Below, in pieces: positions 6,802 to 32,144 of a DNA stretch of 47,147 bases. Within the stretch, counting starts at the first letter, position 1, and every line of letters begins with the position of its first letter. Made by a program: the position numbers and the translations under genes. The DNA is taken from sequence record PZ787336.1. The stretch is one strand, 5' to 3'. This DNA is from a phage. A model generated the notes under the pieces. The model did no database searches. It was not told where the DNA came from and saw nothing but the letters and a program-made list of their open reading frames with translations.

Positions 6802-7148
6802 TATGTCACCAGTGCAAAGTCAGGTGGCTCTGACCTGTTGAAAGTTGAGCCATAGTTAATCACATTCAGAATCTGATTTGCGCCAGCCGCCAGCGGGTCA
6901 GCTTCTGTCACCGTGCCAATCATGATGTAATCACCAACATTAGCGTCAGTGTATTCTGTCCAGAATGTATTTTTCTGCACAATCTCATTGCCTTTCGCAT
7001 CGGTCGATACATCATCGTTAAAGCCATAATCGCACATGATGCTCACTGGCGCGTCAAAAGTTGGCTTGCCGTACTTGTCAGTGCCTCTTTTGTGCCAGAT
7101 GGTGCATGGTTGCGTGTAGCTCCAGTTAGCCAGTGAAGTCATTTGCAT
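6801..7148 (-). CDS. putative head closure / head-tail adaptor protein
   Basis: 115 aa, coupled to neighbours; position-based. Confidence 0.5.
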   Translation of the reverse strand: MQMTSLANWSYTQPCTIWHKRGTDKYGKPTFDAPVSIMCDYGFNDDVSTDAKGNEIVQKNTFWTEYTDANVGDYIMIGTVTEADPLAAGANQILNVINYGSTFNRSEPPDFALVT

Positions 7149-7567
7149 TTACTCCCACGCACAACCGCAAACCACGGCTTGCCGCCGCCGTCCGGGTCTT
7201 CCACTAAATCGCCAGTGCATCCTGCTGTATCCAGTAGTTTCATCTGATTGTATAGCGCCACCCACGGCTTGCTGCCATAAGCGAATGATTGCGATGCGCC
7301 AGATGGTGCGCTCTGACTGGTGACGTAGCGCCCTGCGGTATTTGCGCTAATCAGGATGGAAGCCCACAGCATGATCGCATTTTGCCGGCATTCATCATTG
7401 GGGTAGTTCAGCTCAAGGCATTCACTGATTGATGCCACAAGACACAGAATACCAGACGCATCCGTTGTGGTGATAGTCATTCCACGTGATGCCATCTGGC
7501 TTACTAATTCTTCAGGTGTTGGTGCTGCCATTTTTTTTTGACTCCCGTACCTTCCACCACATTTCAA
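7139..7567 (-). CDS. putative head-tail connector protein
   Basis: 142 aa; likely true start at internal Met (about 7531); position-based. Confidence 0.5.
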   Translation of the reverse strand: MKCGGRYGSQKKMAAPTPEELVSQMASRGMTITTTDASGILCLVASISECLELNYPNDECRQNAIMLWASILISANTAGRYVTSQSAPSGASQSFAYGSKPWVALYNQMKLLDTAGCTGDLVEDPDGGGKPWFAVVRGSKCK

Positions 7568-7796
7568 AGAGGTTCTTTATTACCAGAGACAGGGCGCCGA
7601 GGATTGACGCTACTGCCGCCCACTCTGTCAGACTGTGTGGAATCATAGCCTCAAAATAAGACTGCGTGACAGGCGTTTGCTCTGCAACTTTCAGTCCAAT
7701 ACCAGTACCAATGGAGGCATATCCAGCCTTGTCAATCACCTGCCCCGTCGTCCCGCTTATAACTTGCTCTGCGGCCTGTCTTAGTGTTTCGTTCAT
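7512..7796 (-). CDS. hypothetical protein with C-terminal transmembrane segment
   Basis: 94 aa ORF; hydrophobic stretch AAVASILGALSLVI. Confidence 0.35.
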   Translation of the reverse strand: MNETLRQAAEQVISGTTGQVIDKAGYASIGTGIGLKVAEQTPVTQSYFEAMIPHSLTEWAAVASILGALSLVIKNLFEMWWKVRESKKNGSTNT

Positions 7797-7828
7797 TGCG
7801 AGTCTCGCTGATAATATGTTTCCAGCAC

Positions 7829-8269
7829 TTATAGATTTGAATCAGCGAAAAAACGATGGCAACCACGCCAAGAATAATGTCCAATTTCGCCGCCCCATTT
7901 AAAAGTGATGGAAAGGATGAACAGATGGATGCCGATAATAATAAATGCGTACTGCGCATGAAGCGGCGTTTCTACAGGCGTGATAAATTCCCATACGAAT
8001 GACTCTATCGCAACCAGCCATTCGTAAAGGCTCATCGTCAGCACGCAGAGCGCCATCTTTGTACTTTTACGCAGCGCAATAGCCGGAAACAACCAGACCA
8101 TACACTGCGCAAGGTAATACAGATATTCGGCGGGAAATGAATCAACAAGCACCCATCCAAGATACACAGACATCACCATTGCCGGAATGAACACCAGAAA
8201 CGCAACCATGCCCGTGCAGGCAAATCCAAGCACATACATGATCATGATGGCAACATCTGCGCCGAACAT
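7829..8269 (-). CDS. hypothetical polytopic membrane protein
   Basis: 146 aa, several hydrophobic helices; first larger gene of the minus operon starting near 8388. Confidence 0.5.
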   Translation of the reverse strand: MFGADVAIMIMYVLGFACTGMVAFLVFIPAMVMSVYLGWVLVDSFPAEYLYYLAQCMVWLFPAIALRKSTKMALCVLTMSLYEWLVAIESFVWEFITPVETPLHAQYAFIIIGIHLFILSITFKWGGEIGHYSWRGCHRFFADSNL

Positions 8270-8388
8270 TATTTTTTACCGCGCGATGGTGAACGGGTAG
8301 AGCCGTTTGGCTTCACCACGCCAGTTTTGCCGCCAGTTTTTGTGTTGCCAGTAGCGCGCGAACGAGATGGTGAGTTGGTTGAACCCAT
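8269..8388 (-). CDS. hypothetical small basic Ser/Thr/Lys-rich protein (39 aa)
   Basis: GGAG RBS 8 nt upstream of the ATG; stop overlaps the ATG of the membrane protein (TAATG). Confidence 0.35.
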   Translation of the reverse strand: MGSTNSPSRSRATGNTKTGGKTGVVKPNGSTRSPSRGKK

Positions 8389-8435
8389 GTTTAAATCTCC
8401 TGTTGTTTGATTAGCATGATTTTAGCATATTCCTG

Positions 8436-8464
8436 TTGACGTAGATTGATGTGGCGTTTATAGT
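8436..8464 (+). promoter_or_regulatory. sigma70-like promoter TTGACG-N17-TATAGT for the ParB/methyltransferase island
   Basis: TTGACG 8436-8441 followed directly by tagattga; TATAGT 8459-8464. Confidence 0.5.
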
Positions 8465-8505
8465 TAGTGACGTAGAAACAACAATAAATGTTAGAGGTGA
8501 TGAAG

Positions 8506-9129
8506 ATGAGTAGTAACGCAAAACATTATGATTATTACATGGTTGAAGGTGATGATGTTAAGAAACTAATCGACGCATACGATGACATCAAGAATCGCCG
8601 CAATGAAATTCTCGGTGACGCAATGAAAAAGGTTGGAGCTGTCGCATTTACCACAACGCGCAGTTGGGGCGCTGTTGGCGGTGGCCTGCTTGAGAGTTTT
8701 GCGTGGAGCAATAAATTTGAATTTCCATGCCCTGTAACAATAAAACGTGAAGATTTTTGGGAAGGTCAGCGCGTGGTTATTGTTCGTGGGAAAGGAAACA
8801 CAAAGGATGGTCGTGAATACAACAAAAAGCTGGACGCAGTGATGCGCGAGGCAAACGAGAAATTAAAGTTATTGCCAGAATGGAAGGACTACATTGTTAA
8901 CCATTATGGCATCGCACGTACCGGCATTGGTGAGCAATCTGGTCGCGGATTTGGTTTTGCAATGCTTTCTACTTATGGAGGCAAACACCCGAAAAAGGAT
9001 GATTGTTTGATTTTTGCTGTGCCAAATACAAAAGATGAAGGTCACGGACGGGTAACGATACCTGATAACTTTAAGCAGATAACCTACGGTCAGTTTTACG
9101 ATATTGCTAATTCTGGTGATGAGGATTAA
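8506..9129 (+). CDS. hypothetical protein (207 aa), first gene of an accessory island
   Basis: ATG at 8506 preceded by AGAGGTGA RBS; ORF track gives 8488; no recognised domain. Confidence 0.6.
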   Translation: MSSNAKHYDYYMVEGDDVKKLIDAYDDIKNRRNEILGDAMKKVGAVAFTTTRSWGAVGGGLLESFAWSNKFEFPCPVTIKREDFWEGQRVVIVRGKGNTKDGREYNKKLDAVMREANEKLKLLPEWKDYIVNHYGIARTGIGEQSGRGFGFAMLSTYGGKHPKKDDCLIFAVPNTKDEGHGRVTIPDNFKQITYGQFYDIANSGDED

Positions 9130-17384: not shown

Positions 17385-17448
17385 CTTTTCCGTTGTGGTA
17401 CAATCTACGTCAACAAGTATTGACTAAATGATGTAGAAACGTCAAGAT
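17385..17448. promoter_or_regulatory. divergent promoter region (plus TTGACT at 17420-17425; minus-strand TTGACG-TAGATT element at 17401-17413)
   Basis: contains caatctacgtcaa and gatgtagaaacgtcaa, both members of the repeated motif family. Confidence 0.4.
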
Positions 17449-19130: not shown

Positions 19131-19156
19131 AAAGCCCCATCACGGGGCTTTTTTAT
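19131..19156. terminator. bidirectional rho-independent terminator
   Basis: GCCCCatcacGGGGC followed by tttttt, preceded by A-run. Confidence 0.65.
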
Positions 19157-19631
19157 TACGCAGAGAATTATACTGTGCCTCACACGTCAATCCTGCCTCT
19201 CTCGCCCTGTCAGCGTAATCTGCCAGCTGTTGATTTCTTTCGACAGATTTGCGGAGCACGTCTGCAAGCAAAACTCCGGTTTCTGCGGCTGGGTTGCCAA
19301 TGGACTCAGCGGTGGAATATCCGACGAGCTGCTTGCGGATACTGGTGAGTTGTTGCTGCAACCTGCCAGACTTAGCGACAGCATTAACAGCATCATTGCG
19401 CGCAGCATCAATCCTTTGCTGTGCGTCGGCCTGAATCTTTTGCAGTTCTGCATTGCGTCGTTGCTCCTCTTGTTCGTCTGCGGCCTTCTGTTCTGCGACT
19501 GCCTTCGCGTATCCGGCGGCATATTGTTGCTCGCCATAACCGGACACTTTATTTGCCACCCACAACGCGCCAGCGGCAACAATTATAATAATTGCCAGCG
19601 GTCGCCAGTATTTAACGAGAATCGACATCAT
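19140..19631 (-). CDS. Rz: i-spanin (Rz-like)
   Basis: 163 aa, N-terminal transmembrane helix, Ala/Gln/Arg-rich coiled-coil-like periplasmic region; follows endolysin and holin candidate. Confidence 0.65.
   Translation of the reverse strand: MMSILVKYWRPLAIIIIVAAGALWVANKVSGYGEQQYAAGYAKAVAEQKAADEQEEQRRNAELQKIQADAQQRIDAARNDAVNAVAKSGRLQQQLTSIRKQLVGYSTAESIGNPAAETGVLLADVLRKSVERNQQLADYADRAREAGLTCEAQYNSLRNKKAP
19187..19408 (-). CDS. Rz1: o-spanin (Rz1-like lipoprotein) embedded in the Rz gene in another frame
   Basis: MLRAMMLLMLSLSLAGC signal with LAGC lipobox, Pro-rich mature part, fully nested in 19140..19631. Confidence 0.5.
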   Translation of the reverse strand: MLRAMMLLMLSLSLAGCSNNSPVSASSSSDIPPLSPLATQPQKPEFCLQTCSANLSKEINSWQITLTGRERQD

Positions 19632-19851
19632 TGCGCAGCCTCCGGTTTTCCTTCCTCATGCCGTGCATTTTGCCGAGGATGCCGACAAGCATAATTGAGT
19701 AACTCACACCTTTGACCACGATTGGCGGTAGCGCTGCTTTCAGGTCATCCGGCATCATTACCCACACATGCATCATTGCATCAGGCCATAGTTGTAACAG
19801 CGAGCAGAATGAAATCCACGCGGCGAGCAGCCAGTTGCTTAGCTTTTTCAT
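19612..19851 (-). CDS. putative holin (two transmembrane segments, charged C-terminus)
   Basis: 79 aa membrane protein between endolysin and Rz; ATG overlaps the endolysin stop (ATGA). Confidence 0.4.
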   Translation of the reverse strand: MKKLSNWLLAAWISFCSLLQLWPDAMMHVWVMMPDDLKAALPPIVVKGVSYSIMLVGILGKMHGMRKENRRLRNDVDSR

Positions 19852-20311
19852 GCCACAGCTCCGCCAGCCTCTTTGTATACCTGAATCAGCTTATCCAGCT
19901 TCTGCTCATGCTGACCATACCCAGCGCCCGGCAATGAGGCCCAGCGGGAGCGGCATTTATGGATGGCATCAGCAATGCGACCAGCCTCAATATCAGCGGT
20001 GGCCTTGCATTCACGGATTAGCTGCATTGCAATGGCGTCCTGCGATGCGGGGAGAAGTCCGGTAAACGCAATTGCTTTTTGTACGCATCATAAAACTTAG
20101 CCAGTACCTGATAGCGACCGGCGGCGGTGGATTTAATGCCCAGCCTTGGCAGGCTAATCAGCTTGCGCGGGTGGTCGGAATAGTCGGTAAACAGTGAGCC
20201 GCCAACAATCACATCATAACCATGATTATTGGTTTTCTGCCGCCCGTTATCAGTGCCCTCGCTGTACGCCAGCATATCCAGAAACGCCTTCATGTTTTTA
20301 CTAATAGCCAT
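19848..20311 (-). CDS. endolysin, lambda R-like lytic transglycosylase, apparent -1 frameshift
   Basis: N-terminal KAFLDMLAYSEGTDNGRQKTNNHGYDVIVGG...DFSP closely matches lambda R; the C-terminal SQDAIAMQ...WASLPGAGYGQHE continues in another frame after a C4 run (plus 20049-20052). Confidence 0.8.
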
Positions 20312-20579
20312 ACCAGTAAACCTCTTTTTCAGCTTTGCGTTTTGCTTTGTCGCCAGTCTTCTCGCCCCACGCGATGAAATGCGCAACAGCACATGAGAAG
20401 CAGCGGAGGTTGTGCTTCTTCAGAAGCGTTGATTTACGGAACGCGTAAATGCCAATGTCGGTGGCAAGACTTGCCAGCGCGTCGAACTGATTCTGCGTTG
20501 TCTCGGTAGTGATGTAAGGCGATACATCCACGGCATCGGTAATTCCAAACGTCTCCACGCCTCGTTGCGATAGTTTCAT
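20301..20579 (-). CDS. hypothetical protein upstream of endolysin
   Basis: 92 aa with GGAGG RBS; stop overlaps the endolysin ATG; no clear transmembrane helix, so not called holin. Confidence 0.4.
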   Translation of the reverse strand: MKLSQRGVETFGITDAVDVSPYITTETTQNQFDALASLATDIGIYAFRKSTLLKKHNLRCFSCAVAHFIAWGEKTGDKAKRKAEKEVYWYGY

Positions 20580-20623: not shown

Positions 20624-20654
20624 TTGACGTAGATTGAGTGGTGGTGCATAGTAT
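20624..20654 (+). promoter_or_regulatory. sigma70-like promoter TTGACG...TAGTAT
   Basis: TTGACG 20624-20629 followed by tagattga; TAGTAT 20649-20654; 30 nt upstream of the ATG at 20685. Confidence 0.5.
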
Positions 20655-20684
20655 CTACATCAAATGATGAGTGAGGGAGAAATC

Positions 20685-32115: not shown

Positions 32116-32144
32116 AATCTACATCAATGATGATTCTACGTCAA
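32116..32144 (-). promoter_or_regulatory. sigma70-like promoter TTGACG-N17-TAGATT on minus strand
   Basis: plus cgtcaa 32139-32144 and aatcta 32116-32121; adjacent to the iteron region. Confidence 0.5.

What the first reader, a model, noticed from the sequence alone, without database searches (positions are those of the whole stretch)
7512..8388. Membrane-protein mini-operon between the accessory island and the head-tail connector genes
A 39-aa basic Ser/Thr-rich peptide, a 146-aa polytopic membrane protein and a 94-aa protein with a C-terminal hydrophobic helix are encoded upstream of the connector genes. Membrane proteins are not normal components of this structural block.
Basis: inference. 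Interest (0 to 1): 0.35.

Follow-up and report, generated by a model that had tools for sequence, protein, structure and literature searches.

The report
Accessory holin-like membrane module in phage
Three small genes at the start of this phage's neck/tail operon encode a dispensable inner-membrane module whose core protein looks like a distant relative of the small "class II" phage holins, so it more likely tunes membrane permeability or lysis timing than builds the virus particle.

Summary
The window is a Skatevirus-type siphophage, 99.5% identical to Escherichia phage HC6. On the minus strand lie three real genes under purifying selection. They are a 39-aa basic peptide (8388..8269), a 146-aa five-helix membrane protein (8269..7829) and a 94-aa protein with one strong C-terminal transmembrane helix (7796..7512).

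They do not form a separate mini-operon. They are the 5' end of the neck/tail operon: p39 and p146 share a TAATG junction, and p94 overlaps the DUF7370 "adaptor" gene by 20 nt.

- **p146:** the "lipoprotein" label is wrong, because the cysteine is not conserved.
- **p94:** it founds a family with the architecture of class II holins such as P21 S and T7 gp17.5. Its only recurrent remote matches are to those holin families, all below curated thresholds. Membership is therefore likely but unproven.
- **Pairing:** p94-like genes usually follow a small polytopic membrane gene, next to neck genes, lysis cassettes or on their own.
- **Dispensability:** laboratory genome reduction of the relative seszw deleted p146. 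A natural Roufvirus deletion removed p39 and p146. ES18 has the same neck gene without the module.

Best reading (about 0.45): an accessory holin-like lysis-timing or membrane module. Main rival: superinfection exclusion. This is a modestly interesting new variant of a known kind.

The parts
8419..8427 (-). Putative extended -10 promoter element (TGCTAAAAT on the minus strand) for the p39-p146-p94-neck operon
   Evidence: Read directly from the sequence. The element is conserved as TGCTAAAAT in seszw and as TGATAAAAT in Roufvirus KP591P1. The strict two-hexamer sigma-70 scan did not report it. This part is inference only.
8397..8401 (-). Shine-Dalgarno sequence AGGAG, 7 nt upstream of the p39 ATG
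   Evidence: Sequence. It reads AGGGG in seszw.
8269..8388 (-). p39: a 39-aa basic, Ser/Thr/Gly-rich peptide, presumably disordered. It has a GST(N/R)SPSR motif at both ends, and its stop overlaps the p146 start (TAATG).
   Evidence: It matches PHROG phrog_34767 at E 5e-26. dN/dS is 0.03-0.19. The C-terminal S-P-(S/G)-R-G motif is kept with different codons in distant loci L017, L023 and L025. The ORF is absent from Roufvirus. It is truncated and fused to p94 in the viable mutant seszw_180S.
7829..8269 (-). p146: a 146-aa polytopic inner-membrane protein with five predicted helices, probably N-out/C-in. It is mislabelled 'lipoprotein' in databases.
   Evidence: Hydropathy. AlphaFold2 gives five helices, mean pLDDT 69.7. 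It matches phrog_14688 at E 1.5e-96. Cys18 is not conserved across 20 homologs, whereas YEW..ESF.WQFITPVET...KWGGEIG is strongly conserved. There is no Pfam hit, no solved-structure fold hit, no solved-structure sequence hit and no PADLOC hit. It is precisely deleted in the viable mutant seszw_290S. Only about 95 nt of its 3' end remain in Roufvirus.
7512..7796 (-). p94: a 94-aa holin-like bitopic membrane protein. It has an N-terminal helix, a conserved Gly-rich weakly hydrophobic segment (GQVIDKAGYASIGTGIGLKVA), an acidic linker, a strong transmembrane helix (59-77) and a basic tail. Its 3' end overlaps the DUF7370 start by 20 nt.
   Evidence: It matches phrog_13738 at E 1.7e-60. It gives a sub-threshold Pfam hit to Phage_holin_2_1 (13.5 bits against a cut-off of 26). 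That hit recurs in 11 of 24 and 5 of 19 family members. Family member P0125 hits phrog_20 at E 1.4e-6, and phrog_20 is the P21 S family. hhalign against an S21 alignment gives 32-46% probability.
7139..7531 (-). Context only: the DUF7370 protein, annotated 'head-to-tail adaptor', which is the next gene in the operon and appears translationally coupled to p94
   Evidence: Pfam PF24085 at E 5e-36. The p94-like to DUF7370 order, mostly with a 17-23 nt overlap, is seen in the window, Roufvirus L005, P400 L006, L021 and L023. In L011 the two genes are adjacent without overlap.

Best explanation
The three genes encode an accessory inner-membrane module made from the late neck/tail operon.

Components:
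- **p94 (core):** a divergent relative of the class II holin superfamily (P21 S, T7 gp17.5). I infer that it inserts with its strong C-terminal helix N-out/C-in, leaving the acidic linker in the periplasm and the basic tail in the cytoplasm. Its Gly/Ala/Ser/Thr-rich first segment would behave like the weakly hydrophobic first transmembrane domain of S21.
- **p146:** a five-helix polytopic partner that modulates p94 in an antiholin-like or chaperone-like way.
- **p39:** a conserved basic peptide whose translation is coupled to that of p146.

Proposed mechanism: p94 accumulates in the inner membrane in step with neck and tail proteins and alters membrane permeability or proton-motive force. It thereby tunes when the separate lysis cassette fires. 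That cassette lies at about 20579..19140 and holds an endolysin, a DUF7940 'holin' and Rz/Rz1.

Shown: gene reality, membrane character, operon position, conservation, dispensability of p146 and p39, and recurrent pairing with a polytopic protein.

Inferred: topology, holin homology and any effect on lysis.
For: - **Architecture matches class II holins.** The first segment has 60% G/A/S/T with mean hydropathy 0.94, against 60% and 0.63 for the S21 first transmembrane domain. The linker has net charge -3 and the tail +2.
- **Remote matches fall mainly on holins.** In PHROGs they are phrog_20, 4237, 1350 and 920, plus one family of unknown function. S21 itself hits phrog_20, 4237 and 1350, and T7 gp17.5 hits phrog_920. 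In Pfam they are Phage_holin_2_1, 2_2 and 2_3, alongside scattered single hits to unrelated families. BLASTP of p94 against S21 gives E 9e-5.
- **Two different lysis cassettes end with this pair.** One has an M15_4 endolysin and a GTA_holin_3TM protein. The other has an Amidase_2 endolysin. Both end with a four-transmembrane protein followed by an overlapping p94-like gene.
- **One relative sits just upstream of the small terminase gene**. I recall the same position for T7 gene 17.5.
- **Pairing with a polytopic protein is recurrent.** A 130-165-aa polytopic protein precedes the p94-like gene in about 10 of 14 contexts examined, from at least two sequence families.
- **The module is not required for assembly.** p146 is deleted in viable seszw mutants. 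The N-terminal 29 residues of p94 are lost in viable seszw_180S. Roufvirus lacks p39 and p146. ES18 and CobraSix lack the whole module.
- **The annotated holin rests only on position and a PHROG label.** It is Pfam DUF7940, a family of unknown function.
Against: - All holin matches for p94 itself are below curated thresholds: 13.5 bits against 26 in Pfam and 32-46% hhalign probability confined to the second transmembrane helix and tail. Transmembrane segments can give convergent similarity.
- S21 does not hit phrog_13738 in the reverse direction.
- The phage and its Roufvirus relatives already carry an endolysin, putative holin and spanin cassette about 12 kb away.
- p94 has no dual-start motif.
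- Other family-B pairs sit in a nin-like region (L035) or as an isolated cassette (L022), which looks more like a mobile moron.
- No experiment links any of these genes to lysis timing.
- Retention of the p94 3' half in all reduced genomes may only reflect its overlap with the DUF7370 start.
Confidence: 0.45

Rival explanations
1. The module is a superinfection-exclusion or other host-takeover 'moron'. The membrane proteins sit in the inner membrane and block DNA entry of later-arriving phages, or otherwise modify the envelope. They would have no role in lysis.
For: - PHROGs files p94 under 'moron, auxiliary metabolic gene and host takeover'.
- The pair of a polytopic protein and a p94-like protein occurs as a mobile cassette in several unrelated positions: the head/neck junction, after lysis genes, a nin-like region, and isolated between opposite-strand blocks.
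- p146 and p39 are dispensable in the laboratory and in nature.
- Known exclusion proteins such as T4 Imm and Sp, HK97 gp15 and P22 SieA are also small inner-membrane proteins (my own knowledge).
Against: - No sequence similarity to any defence or exclusion family was found. PADLOC gave nothing, and the remote hits for p94 are to holins.
- p94 is kept in essentially every Skatevirus, Roufvirus and P400-type record that matched: 205 records, the same number as the DUF7370 matches at 60% identity or more. Its dN/dS is as low as that of the neighbouring DUF7370 gene. That is unusual for a sporadic moron.
- Relatives carry an Imm_superinfect-family gene elsewhere.
Confidence: 0.27
2. p94 is the phage's real primary holin, of the T7 gp17.5 type that releases a soluble endolysin. 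The DUF7940 protein in the lysis cassette would then be something else, such as an antiholin or an accessory protein.
For: - The annotated holin is Pfam DUF7940, and only its position and a PHROG label support a holin role.
- p94 is universally conserved in this phage group.
- p94 was never fully lost among the genome-reduced seszw records.
- T7 gp17.5 is likewise encoded among late structural genes, far from its lysozyme gene (my own knowledge).
Against: - The DUF7940 gene sits in the classical holin position between the endolysin and Rz, and it is also retained in the minimal genome.
- It has two hydrophobic segments and a charged tail.
- The viable mutant seszw_180S lacks the most conserved N-terminal part of p94.
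- ES18-type relatives lack p94 altogether.
Confidence: 0.12
3. p94, possibly with p146, is a membrane-anchored morphogenetic factor or a virion component that works with the DUF7370 neck protein.
For: - The p94-like to DUF7370 gene order holds down to about 26-44% protein identity. It is mostly accompanied by a 17-23 nt overlap that suggests translational coupling.
- The p94 3' part is retained in all genome-reduced seszw mutants.
- Selection on p94 is as strong as on the DUF7370 gene.
Against: - ES18 and CobraSix have DUF7370 without any membrane gene upstream.
- p94-like genes also occur far from any structural gene.
- No solved virion structure contains a homolog.
- The retention in mutants is explained by the overlap with the DUF7370 ribosome-binding site and start.
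- I found no virion proteomics listing it.
Confidence: 0.08

Closest known systems
Phage 21 S (S21 pinholin; Pfam PF04971 Phage_holin_2_1; PHROG phrog_20)
   Same: Both are small bitopic membrane proteins. Both have a first segment that is weakly hydrophobic and 60% G/A/S/T, a strong second transmembrane helix preceded by an S-x-x-(Q/E)-W-A-A motif, and a basic tail. A p94-family member matches the S21 PHROG at E 1.4e-6.
   Different: - p94 has about 20 extra N-terminal residues and a 20-residue acidic linker.
- It has no dual start.
- It is below the Pfam gathering score, and hhalign gives only 32-46% probability.
- It is not next to an endolysin.
- The phage's lambda-R-like endolysin has no hydrophobic N-terminal (SAR-type) signal-anchor sequence that a pinholin would serve.
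- It is paired with a polytopic protein.
T7 gp17.5 (class II holin; Pfam PF10746 Phage_holin_2_2; PHROG phrog_920)
   Same: Both have a Gly-rich first segment (APIVGTGVADV against ASIGTGIGLKV) and an S-L-(N/T)-E-W motif before the transmembrane helix. By my own knowledge, gp17.5 is also encoded inside the late structural and packaging gene block, is unlinked to the lysozyme gene and is non-essential. One p94-family member hits phrog_920, and another lies just upstream of a small terminase gene.
   Different: The similarity is weak: hhalign gives 32% probability over the transmembrane helix and tail only. T7 has no polytopic partner and no leader peptide.
P2 LysA, and antiholin-type polytopic lysis regulators in general (my own knowledge)
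   Same: Like p146, these are small, non-essential polytopic inner-membrane proteins. They are encoded within a late operon between head-completion and tail-completion genes and affect lysis timing rather than being required for lysis.
   Different: No sequence or profile similarity was detected. p146 has no Pfam hit at all, so the resemblance is purely analogical and was not tested.
Superinfection-exclusion membrane proteins (T4 Imm and Sp, HK97 gp15, P22 SieA; my own knowledge)
   Same: They are small inner-membrane proteins, dispensable for growth, often encoded as inserts inside structural operons.
   Different: No homology was found. In contrast to typical morons, p94 is universally conserved within its phage group and shows holin-family affinities.

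Membership tests
Class II holins / holin superfamily II (P21 S, T7 gp17.5, HP1 holin) | Small membrane protein of about 60-120 aa | tested here: met
   p94 is 94 aa. Family members range from 76 to 118 aa.
Class II holins / holin superfamily II (P21 S, T7 gp17.5, HP1 holin) | Two transmembrane domains, N-in/C-in, with the first weakly hydrophobic and G/A/S/T-rich in S21 | tested here: inconclusive
   The second helix is clear (residues 59-77, mean hydropathy 1.70). The candidate first segment (24-38, AGYASIGTGIGLKVA) has mean hydropathy 0.94 and 60% G/A/S/T, against 0.63 and 60% for S21. AlphaFold2 gives this region low confidence. No topology experiment exists.
Class II holins / holin superfamily II (P21 S, T7 gp17.5, HP1 holin) | Charged, net-basic cytoplasmic C-terminal tail | tested here: met
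   The tail KNLFEMWWKVRESKKNGSTNT has net charge +2. Fifteen of the 19 aligned family members have a net-positive tail.
Class II holins / holin superfamily II (P21 S, T7 gp17.5, HP1 holin) | Sequence match above the curated family threshold | tested here: not met
   Pfam PF04971 gives 13.5 bits against a cut-off of 26, and the best family member reaches E 0.001. hhalign against an S21 alignment gives 32-46% probability. Supporting but indirect: P0125 matches phrog_20, the S21 family, at E 1.4e-6. I therefore do not file p94 as a confirmed member.
Class II holins / holin superfamily II (P21 S, T7 gp17.5, HP1 holin) | Genetic linkage to an endolysin | tested here: not met
   In the window the endolysin lies about 12 kb away, at roughly 20320..19850. 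Linkage is seen for relatives in L012 and L013/L014. This feature is not universal among holins: T7 gene 17.5 is unlinked (my own knowledge).
Class II holins / holin superfamily II (P21 S, T7 gp17.5, HP1 holin) | Dual-start motif giving holin and antiholin isoforms (S21, lambda S) | tested here: not met
   p94 starts MNETLRQ and has no second in-frame start within the first residues.
Class II holins / holin superfamily II (P21 S, T7 gp17.5, HP1 holin) | Timed, energy-poison-triggerable lethal hole formation | not testable with these tools
   This needs expression and physiology experiments.
Bacterial/phage lipoproteins (database label of p146) | Signal peptide ending in a lipobox with an invariant Cys | tested here: not met
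   Cys18 is replaced by F, V, I or L in homologs. The protein continues as five hydrophobic helices. The label traces to a PROSITE PS00013 pattern hit and a SignalP prediction recorded in the Vi II-E1 annotation.
Virion neck or structural proteins | Obligatory co-occurrence with the neck genes, or presence in solved or proteomically defined virions | tested here: not met
   ES18 and CobraSix have DUF7370 necks without the module. There are no matches to solved structures. p146 and part of p94 are deletable. No virion proteomics for this phage group was found.
Known anti-phage defence or exclusion systems | Profile match to a described defence protein | tested here: not met
   PADLOC gave no hit at E 0.1 or better for p39, p146, p94 or five partner proteins. 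Functional exclusion was not testable.

The most novel reading that the evidence does not exclude
The pair of a small polytopic membrane protein and an S21-like, p94-type protein is an unrecognised, mobile two-component phage membrane system. It occurs in several unrelated genome positions, with partners from at least two sequence families. In Skatevirus-type phages it has been fixed at the head/neck junction together with a conserved basic leader peptide. There it would act either as a lysis clock tied to morphogenesis gene expression or as a new exclusion device based on controlled depolarisation.
Probability: 0.25. Interest if true: 0.55.

Novelty: new variant of a known kind. Interest (0 to 1): 0.35.

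Why it matters
If p94 really is a holin-type protein made from the neck/tail operon, these common Salmonella, E. coli and Klebsiella phages would carry two unrelated candidate holins. They would also carry a polytopic modulator, which gives a tractable case for asking how lysis timing is coupled to particle assembly. Many of these phages are being developed for biocontrol.

Practical consequences:
- The widespread "lipoprotein" label on p146 is wrong.
- The module marks a roughly 0.9-kb stretch, and the p39-p146 part of it is demonstrably removable for phage engineering.
- The 3' part of p94 must be kept, or its overlap with the DUF7370 start must be rebuilt.

Tried and rejected
- **Lipoprotein (p146):** rejected, because the Cys is not conserved and the protein has five helices.
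- **Fold match for p146:** Foldseek against the PDB gave nothing with E at or below 0.001. Profile searches against PDB sequences gave nothing for p146, p94 or DUF7370.
- **p94 structure:** the AlphaFold2 model is low-confidence outside the transmembrane helix (mean pLDDT 58), so I did not fold-search it.
- **Firm membership of the S21 family:** not reached.
- **p94 as a paralog of the phage's own 79-aa holin:** no similarity, hhalign probability 0.2%.
- **Homology between partner families A (p146-like) and B (L012, L013, L022):** not demonstrable, hhalign probability 0.2-12%.
- **Defence systems:** PADLOC was empty. NCBIfam gave only scattered noise hits.
- **Sigma-70 promoter scan:** it found no canonical minus-strand promoter upstream of p39. 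Only an extended -10 element, read by eye, is proposed.
- **Collecting more distant contexts:** the whole-family alignment was too divergent for the search for related loci. One clade returned no relatives in viral contigs and another returned only two, which were not examined. The single metagenome scan added one informative locus, L035.
- **Literature:** no virion proteomics or functional work on these genes was found. The supplementary gene tables of the genome-reduction paper are not held, so I read gene essentiality from the deposited mutant genomes instead.
- **Spanin role:** rejected. Rz/Rz1 are present elsewhere, and p94 has the wrong topology.
Full report
**What the window is.** The 3.2 kb around the finding is 99.5% identical to Escherichia phages HC6, 6947 and HC8A. 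It is 87-97% identical to many Salmonella, E. coli and Shigella siphophages of the Skatevirus / Vi II-E1 group, and more distantly related to Klebsiella phages of the Roufvirus type. The annotated relative Bas79 shows the overall layout. It has a head module, a reverse-oriented block (an EaC-like gene, a ParB-like gene, a methylase and RusA), then the genes of the finding. The neck, tail, replication and recombination genes follow, and a separate lysis cassette lies elsewhere.

**Check of the observation.** All three ORFs lie on the minus strand as described.
- p39, 8388..8269: pI 12.0, 13 Ser/Thr, 9 Lys/Arg and no acidic residue.
- p146, 8269..7829: strongly hydrophobic. AlphaFold2 gives five helices (2-19, 23-44, 48-65, 70-96, 105-128) with mean pLDDT 69.7. 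From the loop charges I infer an N-out/C-in topology.
- p94, 7796..7512: one strong hydrophobic helix at 59-77, followed by a basic tail.

The genes are real.
- p39 has an AGGAG Shine-Dalgarno sequence 7 nt upstream of its start.
- The p39 stop overlaps the p146 start in TAATG, in the window and in five relatives.
- dN/dS against relatives is 0.03-0.19 for p39, 0.15-0.50 for p146 and 0.01-0.11 for p94. The next gene gives 0.01-0.08.
- p94 overlaps the start of the DUF7370 gene (PF24085, E 5e-36) by 20 nt. The trio is therefore the 5' end of the neck/tail operon and not a separate mini-operon.

**Where the module belongs.** Yersinia phage P400 has these genes contiguous, with no reverse-strand island: major capsid gene, a 77-aa ORF, a 47-aa p39-like ORF, a p146 homolog, a p94-like gene, then the neck genes. 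Metagenomic contigs L023 and L021 show the same order. The accessory island of the window was therefore inserted upstream of an older arrangement. The module is still not part of the conserved neck. ES18 and CobraSix share the decoration, coat and DUF7370 genes. Between coat and DUF7370 they have only a small ORF, plus a terminator in ES18 and an HNH endonuclease in CobraSix.

**p146.**
- The family is restricted to this phage group: 103 phage records and 48 protein clusters, almost all 146 aa long.
- The database label "lipoprotein" traces to a PROSITE pattern and a SignalP call in Vi II-E1. Cys18 is not conserved.
- The C-terminal half (YEW..ESF.WQFITPVET...H....KWGGEIG) is highly conserved, including several polar residues.
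- p146 has no Pfam hit, no solved-structure fold match, no solved-structure sequence match and no PADLOC match.

**p94 and its family.**
- Close homologs occur in 205 phage records. These include the Klebsiella, Vibrio and Aeromonas phages that lack p146.
- A profile search of 1.84 billion representative proteins found 25 relatives. The full-length ones are 76-118 aa.
- They share an N-terminal stretch, a conserved (I/V)DK.G..S.G.G.G(L/I) segment, a linker, an (L)(T/S)(D/E)WAA..SI.G.....IKN helix and a charged tail.
- p94 gives a sub-threshold Pfam hit to Phage_holin_2_1. The hit recurs in 11 of 24 close members and 5 of 19 diverse members. Two members hit Phage_holin_2_3 and one hits Phage_holin_2_2.
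- In PHROGs, every annotated secondary hit of the family is a holin family: phrog_20 (four members, best E 1.4e-6 over residues 19-113 of P0125), phrog_4237, phrog_1350 and phrog_920. Two members also hit phrog_12246, which has no assigned function.
The S21 sequence was validated at 100% identity to a PF04971 protein. The gp17.5 sequence matches phrog_920 over its full length at E 1.2e-30.
- S21 falls in phrog_20, 4237 and 1350, and T7 gp17.5 falls in phrog_920. The secondary hits of the p94 family are therefore exactly the class II holin set.
- NCBIfam gave only scattered noise, which shows what chance hits look like for these sequences.
- Direct tests remain borderline. BLASTP of p94 against S21 gives E 9e-5 over the second helix and tail. 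hhalign gives 32-46% probability against an S21 alignment and 32% against T7 gp17.5.
- Composition agrees with the comparison. The first segment of p94 is 60% G/A/S/T with mean hydropathy 0.94, against 60% and 0.63 for S21. The linker is acidic and the tail basic.
- My conclusion is that p94 works like, and is probably remotely related to, class II holins, but membership is not proven.

**A recurrent partner.** I recovered genomic contexts for the distant relatives.

| Context | Loci |
|---|---|
| p146-family protein (146-163 aa), p94-like, then DUF7370 where the contig extends that far | window, P400 (L006), L021, L023, L017 |
| Family-B four-transmembrane protein (152-165 aa) followed by an overlapping p94-like gene, at the end of two different endolysin cassettes | L012 (M15_4 endolysin, GTA_holin_3TM), L013/L014 (Amidase_2) |
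| Family-B pair as an isolated cassette between opposite-strand blocks | L022 |
| A 163-aa four-transmembrane protein that looks like family B (homology not tested), then an overlapping p94-like gene, in a nin-like region | L035 |
| A 132-aa four-transmembrane protein, then p94-like, upstream of the small terminase gene | L019/L020 |
| Partial polytopic ORF overlapping a p94-like gene | L016 |
| p94-like without a polytopic partner | L011, Roufvirus L005, L018 |

Family-B partners are homologous to one another (E 1e-21 to 3e-9). Families A and B are not demonstrably homologous. About 10 of 14 contexts therefore pair a p94-like gene with a small polytopic membrane protein. The contexts are partly non-independent, but they include at least three separate associations.

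**Dispensability.** The genome-reduction study of Skatevirus seszw (PMC9825161) deposited its mutant genomes.
- The smallest mutant, seszw_290S (35,993 bp), has an exact deletion of the p146 homolog. It keeps p39, lengthened by two residues, and keeps p94.
- Record counts suggest that about 52 Salmonella-phage records, mostly these mutants, lack p146 but keep p94. That is 76 records with p146 against 128 with p94.
- One viable small-plaque mutant, seszw_180S, carries a 592-nt in-frame deletion. It fuses p39(1-28) to p94(30-94). This removes the p39 C-terminal motif, all of p146 and the most conserved N-terminal part of p94.
- In nature, Roufvirus KP591P1 keeps the conserved upstream region and then only the last ~95 nt of the p146 gene, still encoding GGEIGY, before p94. 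p39 and most of p146 were therefore deleted in that lineage.
- No sequenced seszw mutant lost the 3' half of p94. That half carries the ribosome-binding site and start of the DUF7370 gene, so its retention does not prove that p94 is needed. The paper's supplementary gene table is not held.

**p39.**
- It is conserved as a peptide and not merely as a spacer.
- The C-terminal S-P-(S/G)-R-G motif is kept with different codons in L017, L023 and L025.
- The motif GS(T/S)N(S/G)PSR occurs at both ends of p39 and of the P400 47-aa protein.
- Its function is unknown. I infer that it is a disordered basic peptide whose translation delivers ribosomes to the p146 start.

**The lysis cassette.** It lies on the minus strand at about 20579..19140 and holds four elements.
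- A 92-aa lysozyme fragment.
- A lambda-R-like endolysin without an N-terminal hydrophobic signal.
- A 79-aa 'holin'. It is Pfam DUF7940, and its holin label rests on position and on PHROG annotation.
- Rz with an embedded Rz1.

The 79-aa protein is unrelated to p94. Roufvirus carries the same kind of cassette.

**Interpretation.**

| Reading | Confidence |
|---|---|
| Accessory holin-like inner-membrane module expressed with the neck/tail genes, tuning membrane permeability or lysis timing. p146 is a modulator and p39 a coupled leader peptide. | about 0.45 |
| Superinfection exclusion or other host-takeover moron. It fits the mobility and dispensability, but has no homology support and fits poorly with the universal conservation of p94. 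| about 0.27 |
| p94 is the true primary holin. | about 0.12 |
| Membrane-anchored assembly factor or virion component. | about 0.08 |

None of these has experimental support. The decisive experiments are listed separately.

**Novelty and score.** The genes are annotated in databases as hypothetical, membrane protein, lipoprotein or, occasionally, holin. I found no functional study of them. The new points are:
- the correction of the lipoprotein label;
- the link of the p94 family to class II holins;
- the recurrent pairing with polytopic partners in several genomic contexts;
- the laboratory and natural deletion evidence.

This is a new variant of a known kind, of modest interest (0.35).

Noticed in passing
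window about 20049-20053 (minus strand), within the endolysin gene at roughly 20320..19850: Compared with Bas79, the lambda-R-like endolysin gene has one C fewer in a C5 run (TTCTCCCCCGC against TTCTCCCCGC). The reading frame therefore stops at 20018, and the C-terminal third of the protein falls in another frame. This is either a homopolymer sequencing error or a genuine frameshift.
   Followed up: partly
window 20301-20579 (minus strand): A 92-aa ORF heading the lysis cassette matches only positions 55-114 of Pfam Phage_lysozyme, so it lacks the N-terminal catalytic part. Relatives conserve it and annotate it as 'endolysin'. It is even retained in the 36-kb minimal seszw genome. It could be a domesticated lysozyme fragment or a remnant.
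   Followed up: partly
window 8437-8476, 17404-17437, 20625-20662, 32118-32143, 36100, 38727 and other sites: The 9-mer TGACGTAGA (TGAYGTAGA) is over-represented: 17 matches at up to one mismatch against 7.1 expected, and no shuffle out of 100 reached 17. It occurs mostly as pairs in intergenic regions. The first copy forms a TTGACG -35-like box, and the second lies 20-30 nt downstream. It looks like a phage-specific promoter/operator design for the plus-strand early-type genes, including the EaC/ParB block divergent from p39.
   Followed up: partly
L029 (MZ375330.1, seszw_180S), DUF7370 gene codon 23; L007/L036 (PP216514.2, PHA46_2), corresponding to window 7507-7310: Two deposited genomes of apparently viable phages carry a disrupted DUF7370 'adaptor' gene. 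seszw_180S has a 2-nt deletion. PHA46_2 has a 198-nt internal deletion, together with deletions of 127 nt in p146 and 189 nt in p94. Either these are assembly artefacts or DUF7370 is not an essential adaptor.
   Followed up: partly
p94 codons 25-30 (window about 7709-7724); L007, L029 and L037: Three independent rearrangement breakpoints fall within codons 25-30 of p94, just after GQVIDKAG. They occur in PHA46_2, in the JGI contig carrying P0131, and in seszw_180S. This could be a recombination-prone spot or a coincidence.
   Followed up: no
L005 (Klebsiella phage KP591P1) 3380-3500: This Roufvirus retains only the last ~95 nt of the p146 gene, still reading GGEIGY, between the conserved promoter region and p94. 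It is a footprint of a natural deletion of p39 and p146.
   Followed up: yes
window 19612-19851 (minus strand): The protein annotated as the phage's holin belongs to Pfam DUF7940, a family of unknown function. Its holin role rests on its position between endolysin and Rz and on a PHROG label.
   Followed up: partly
window 8411-8521 (minus strand): A 36-aa TTG-start ORF lies across the divergent promoter region. Its counterpart is annotated as a gene in Bas79 (Bas79_0045) and in PHA46_2. It is probably an annotation artefact.
   Followed up: no
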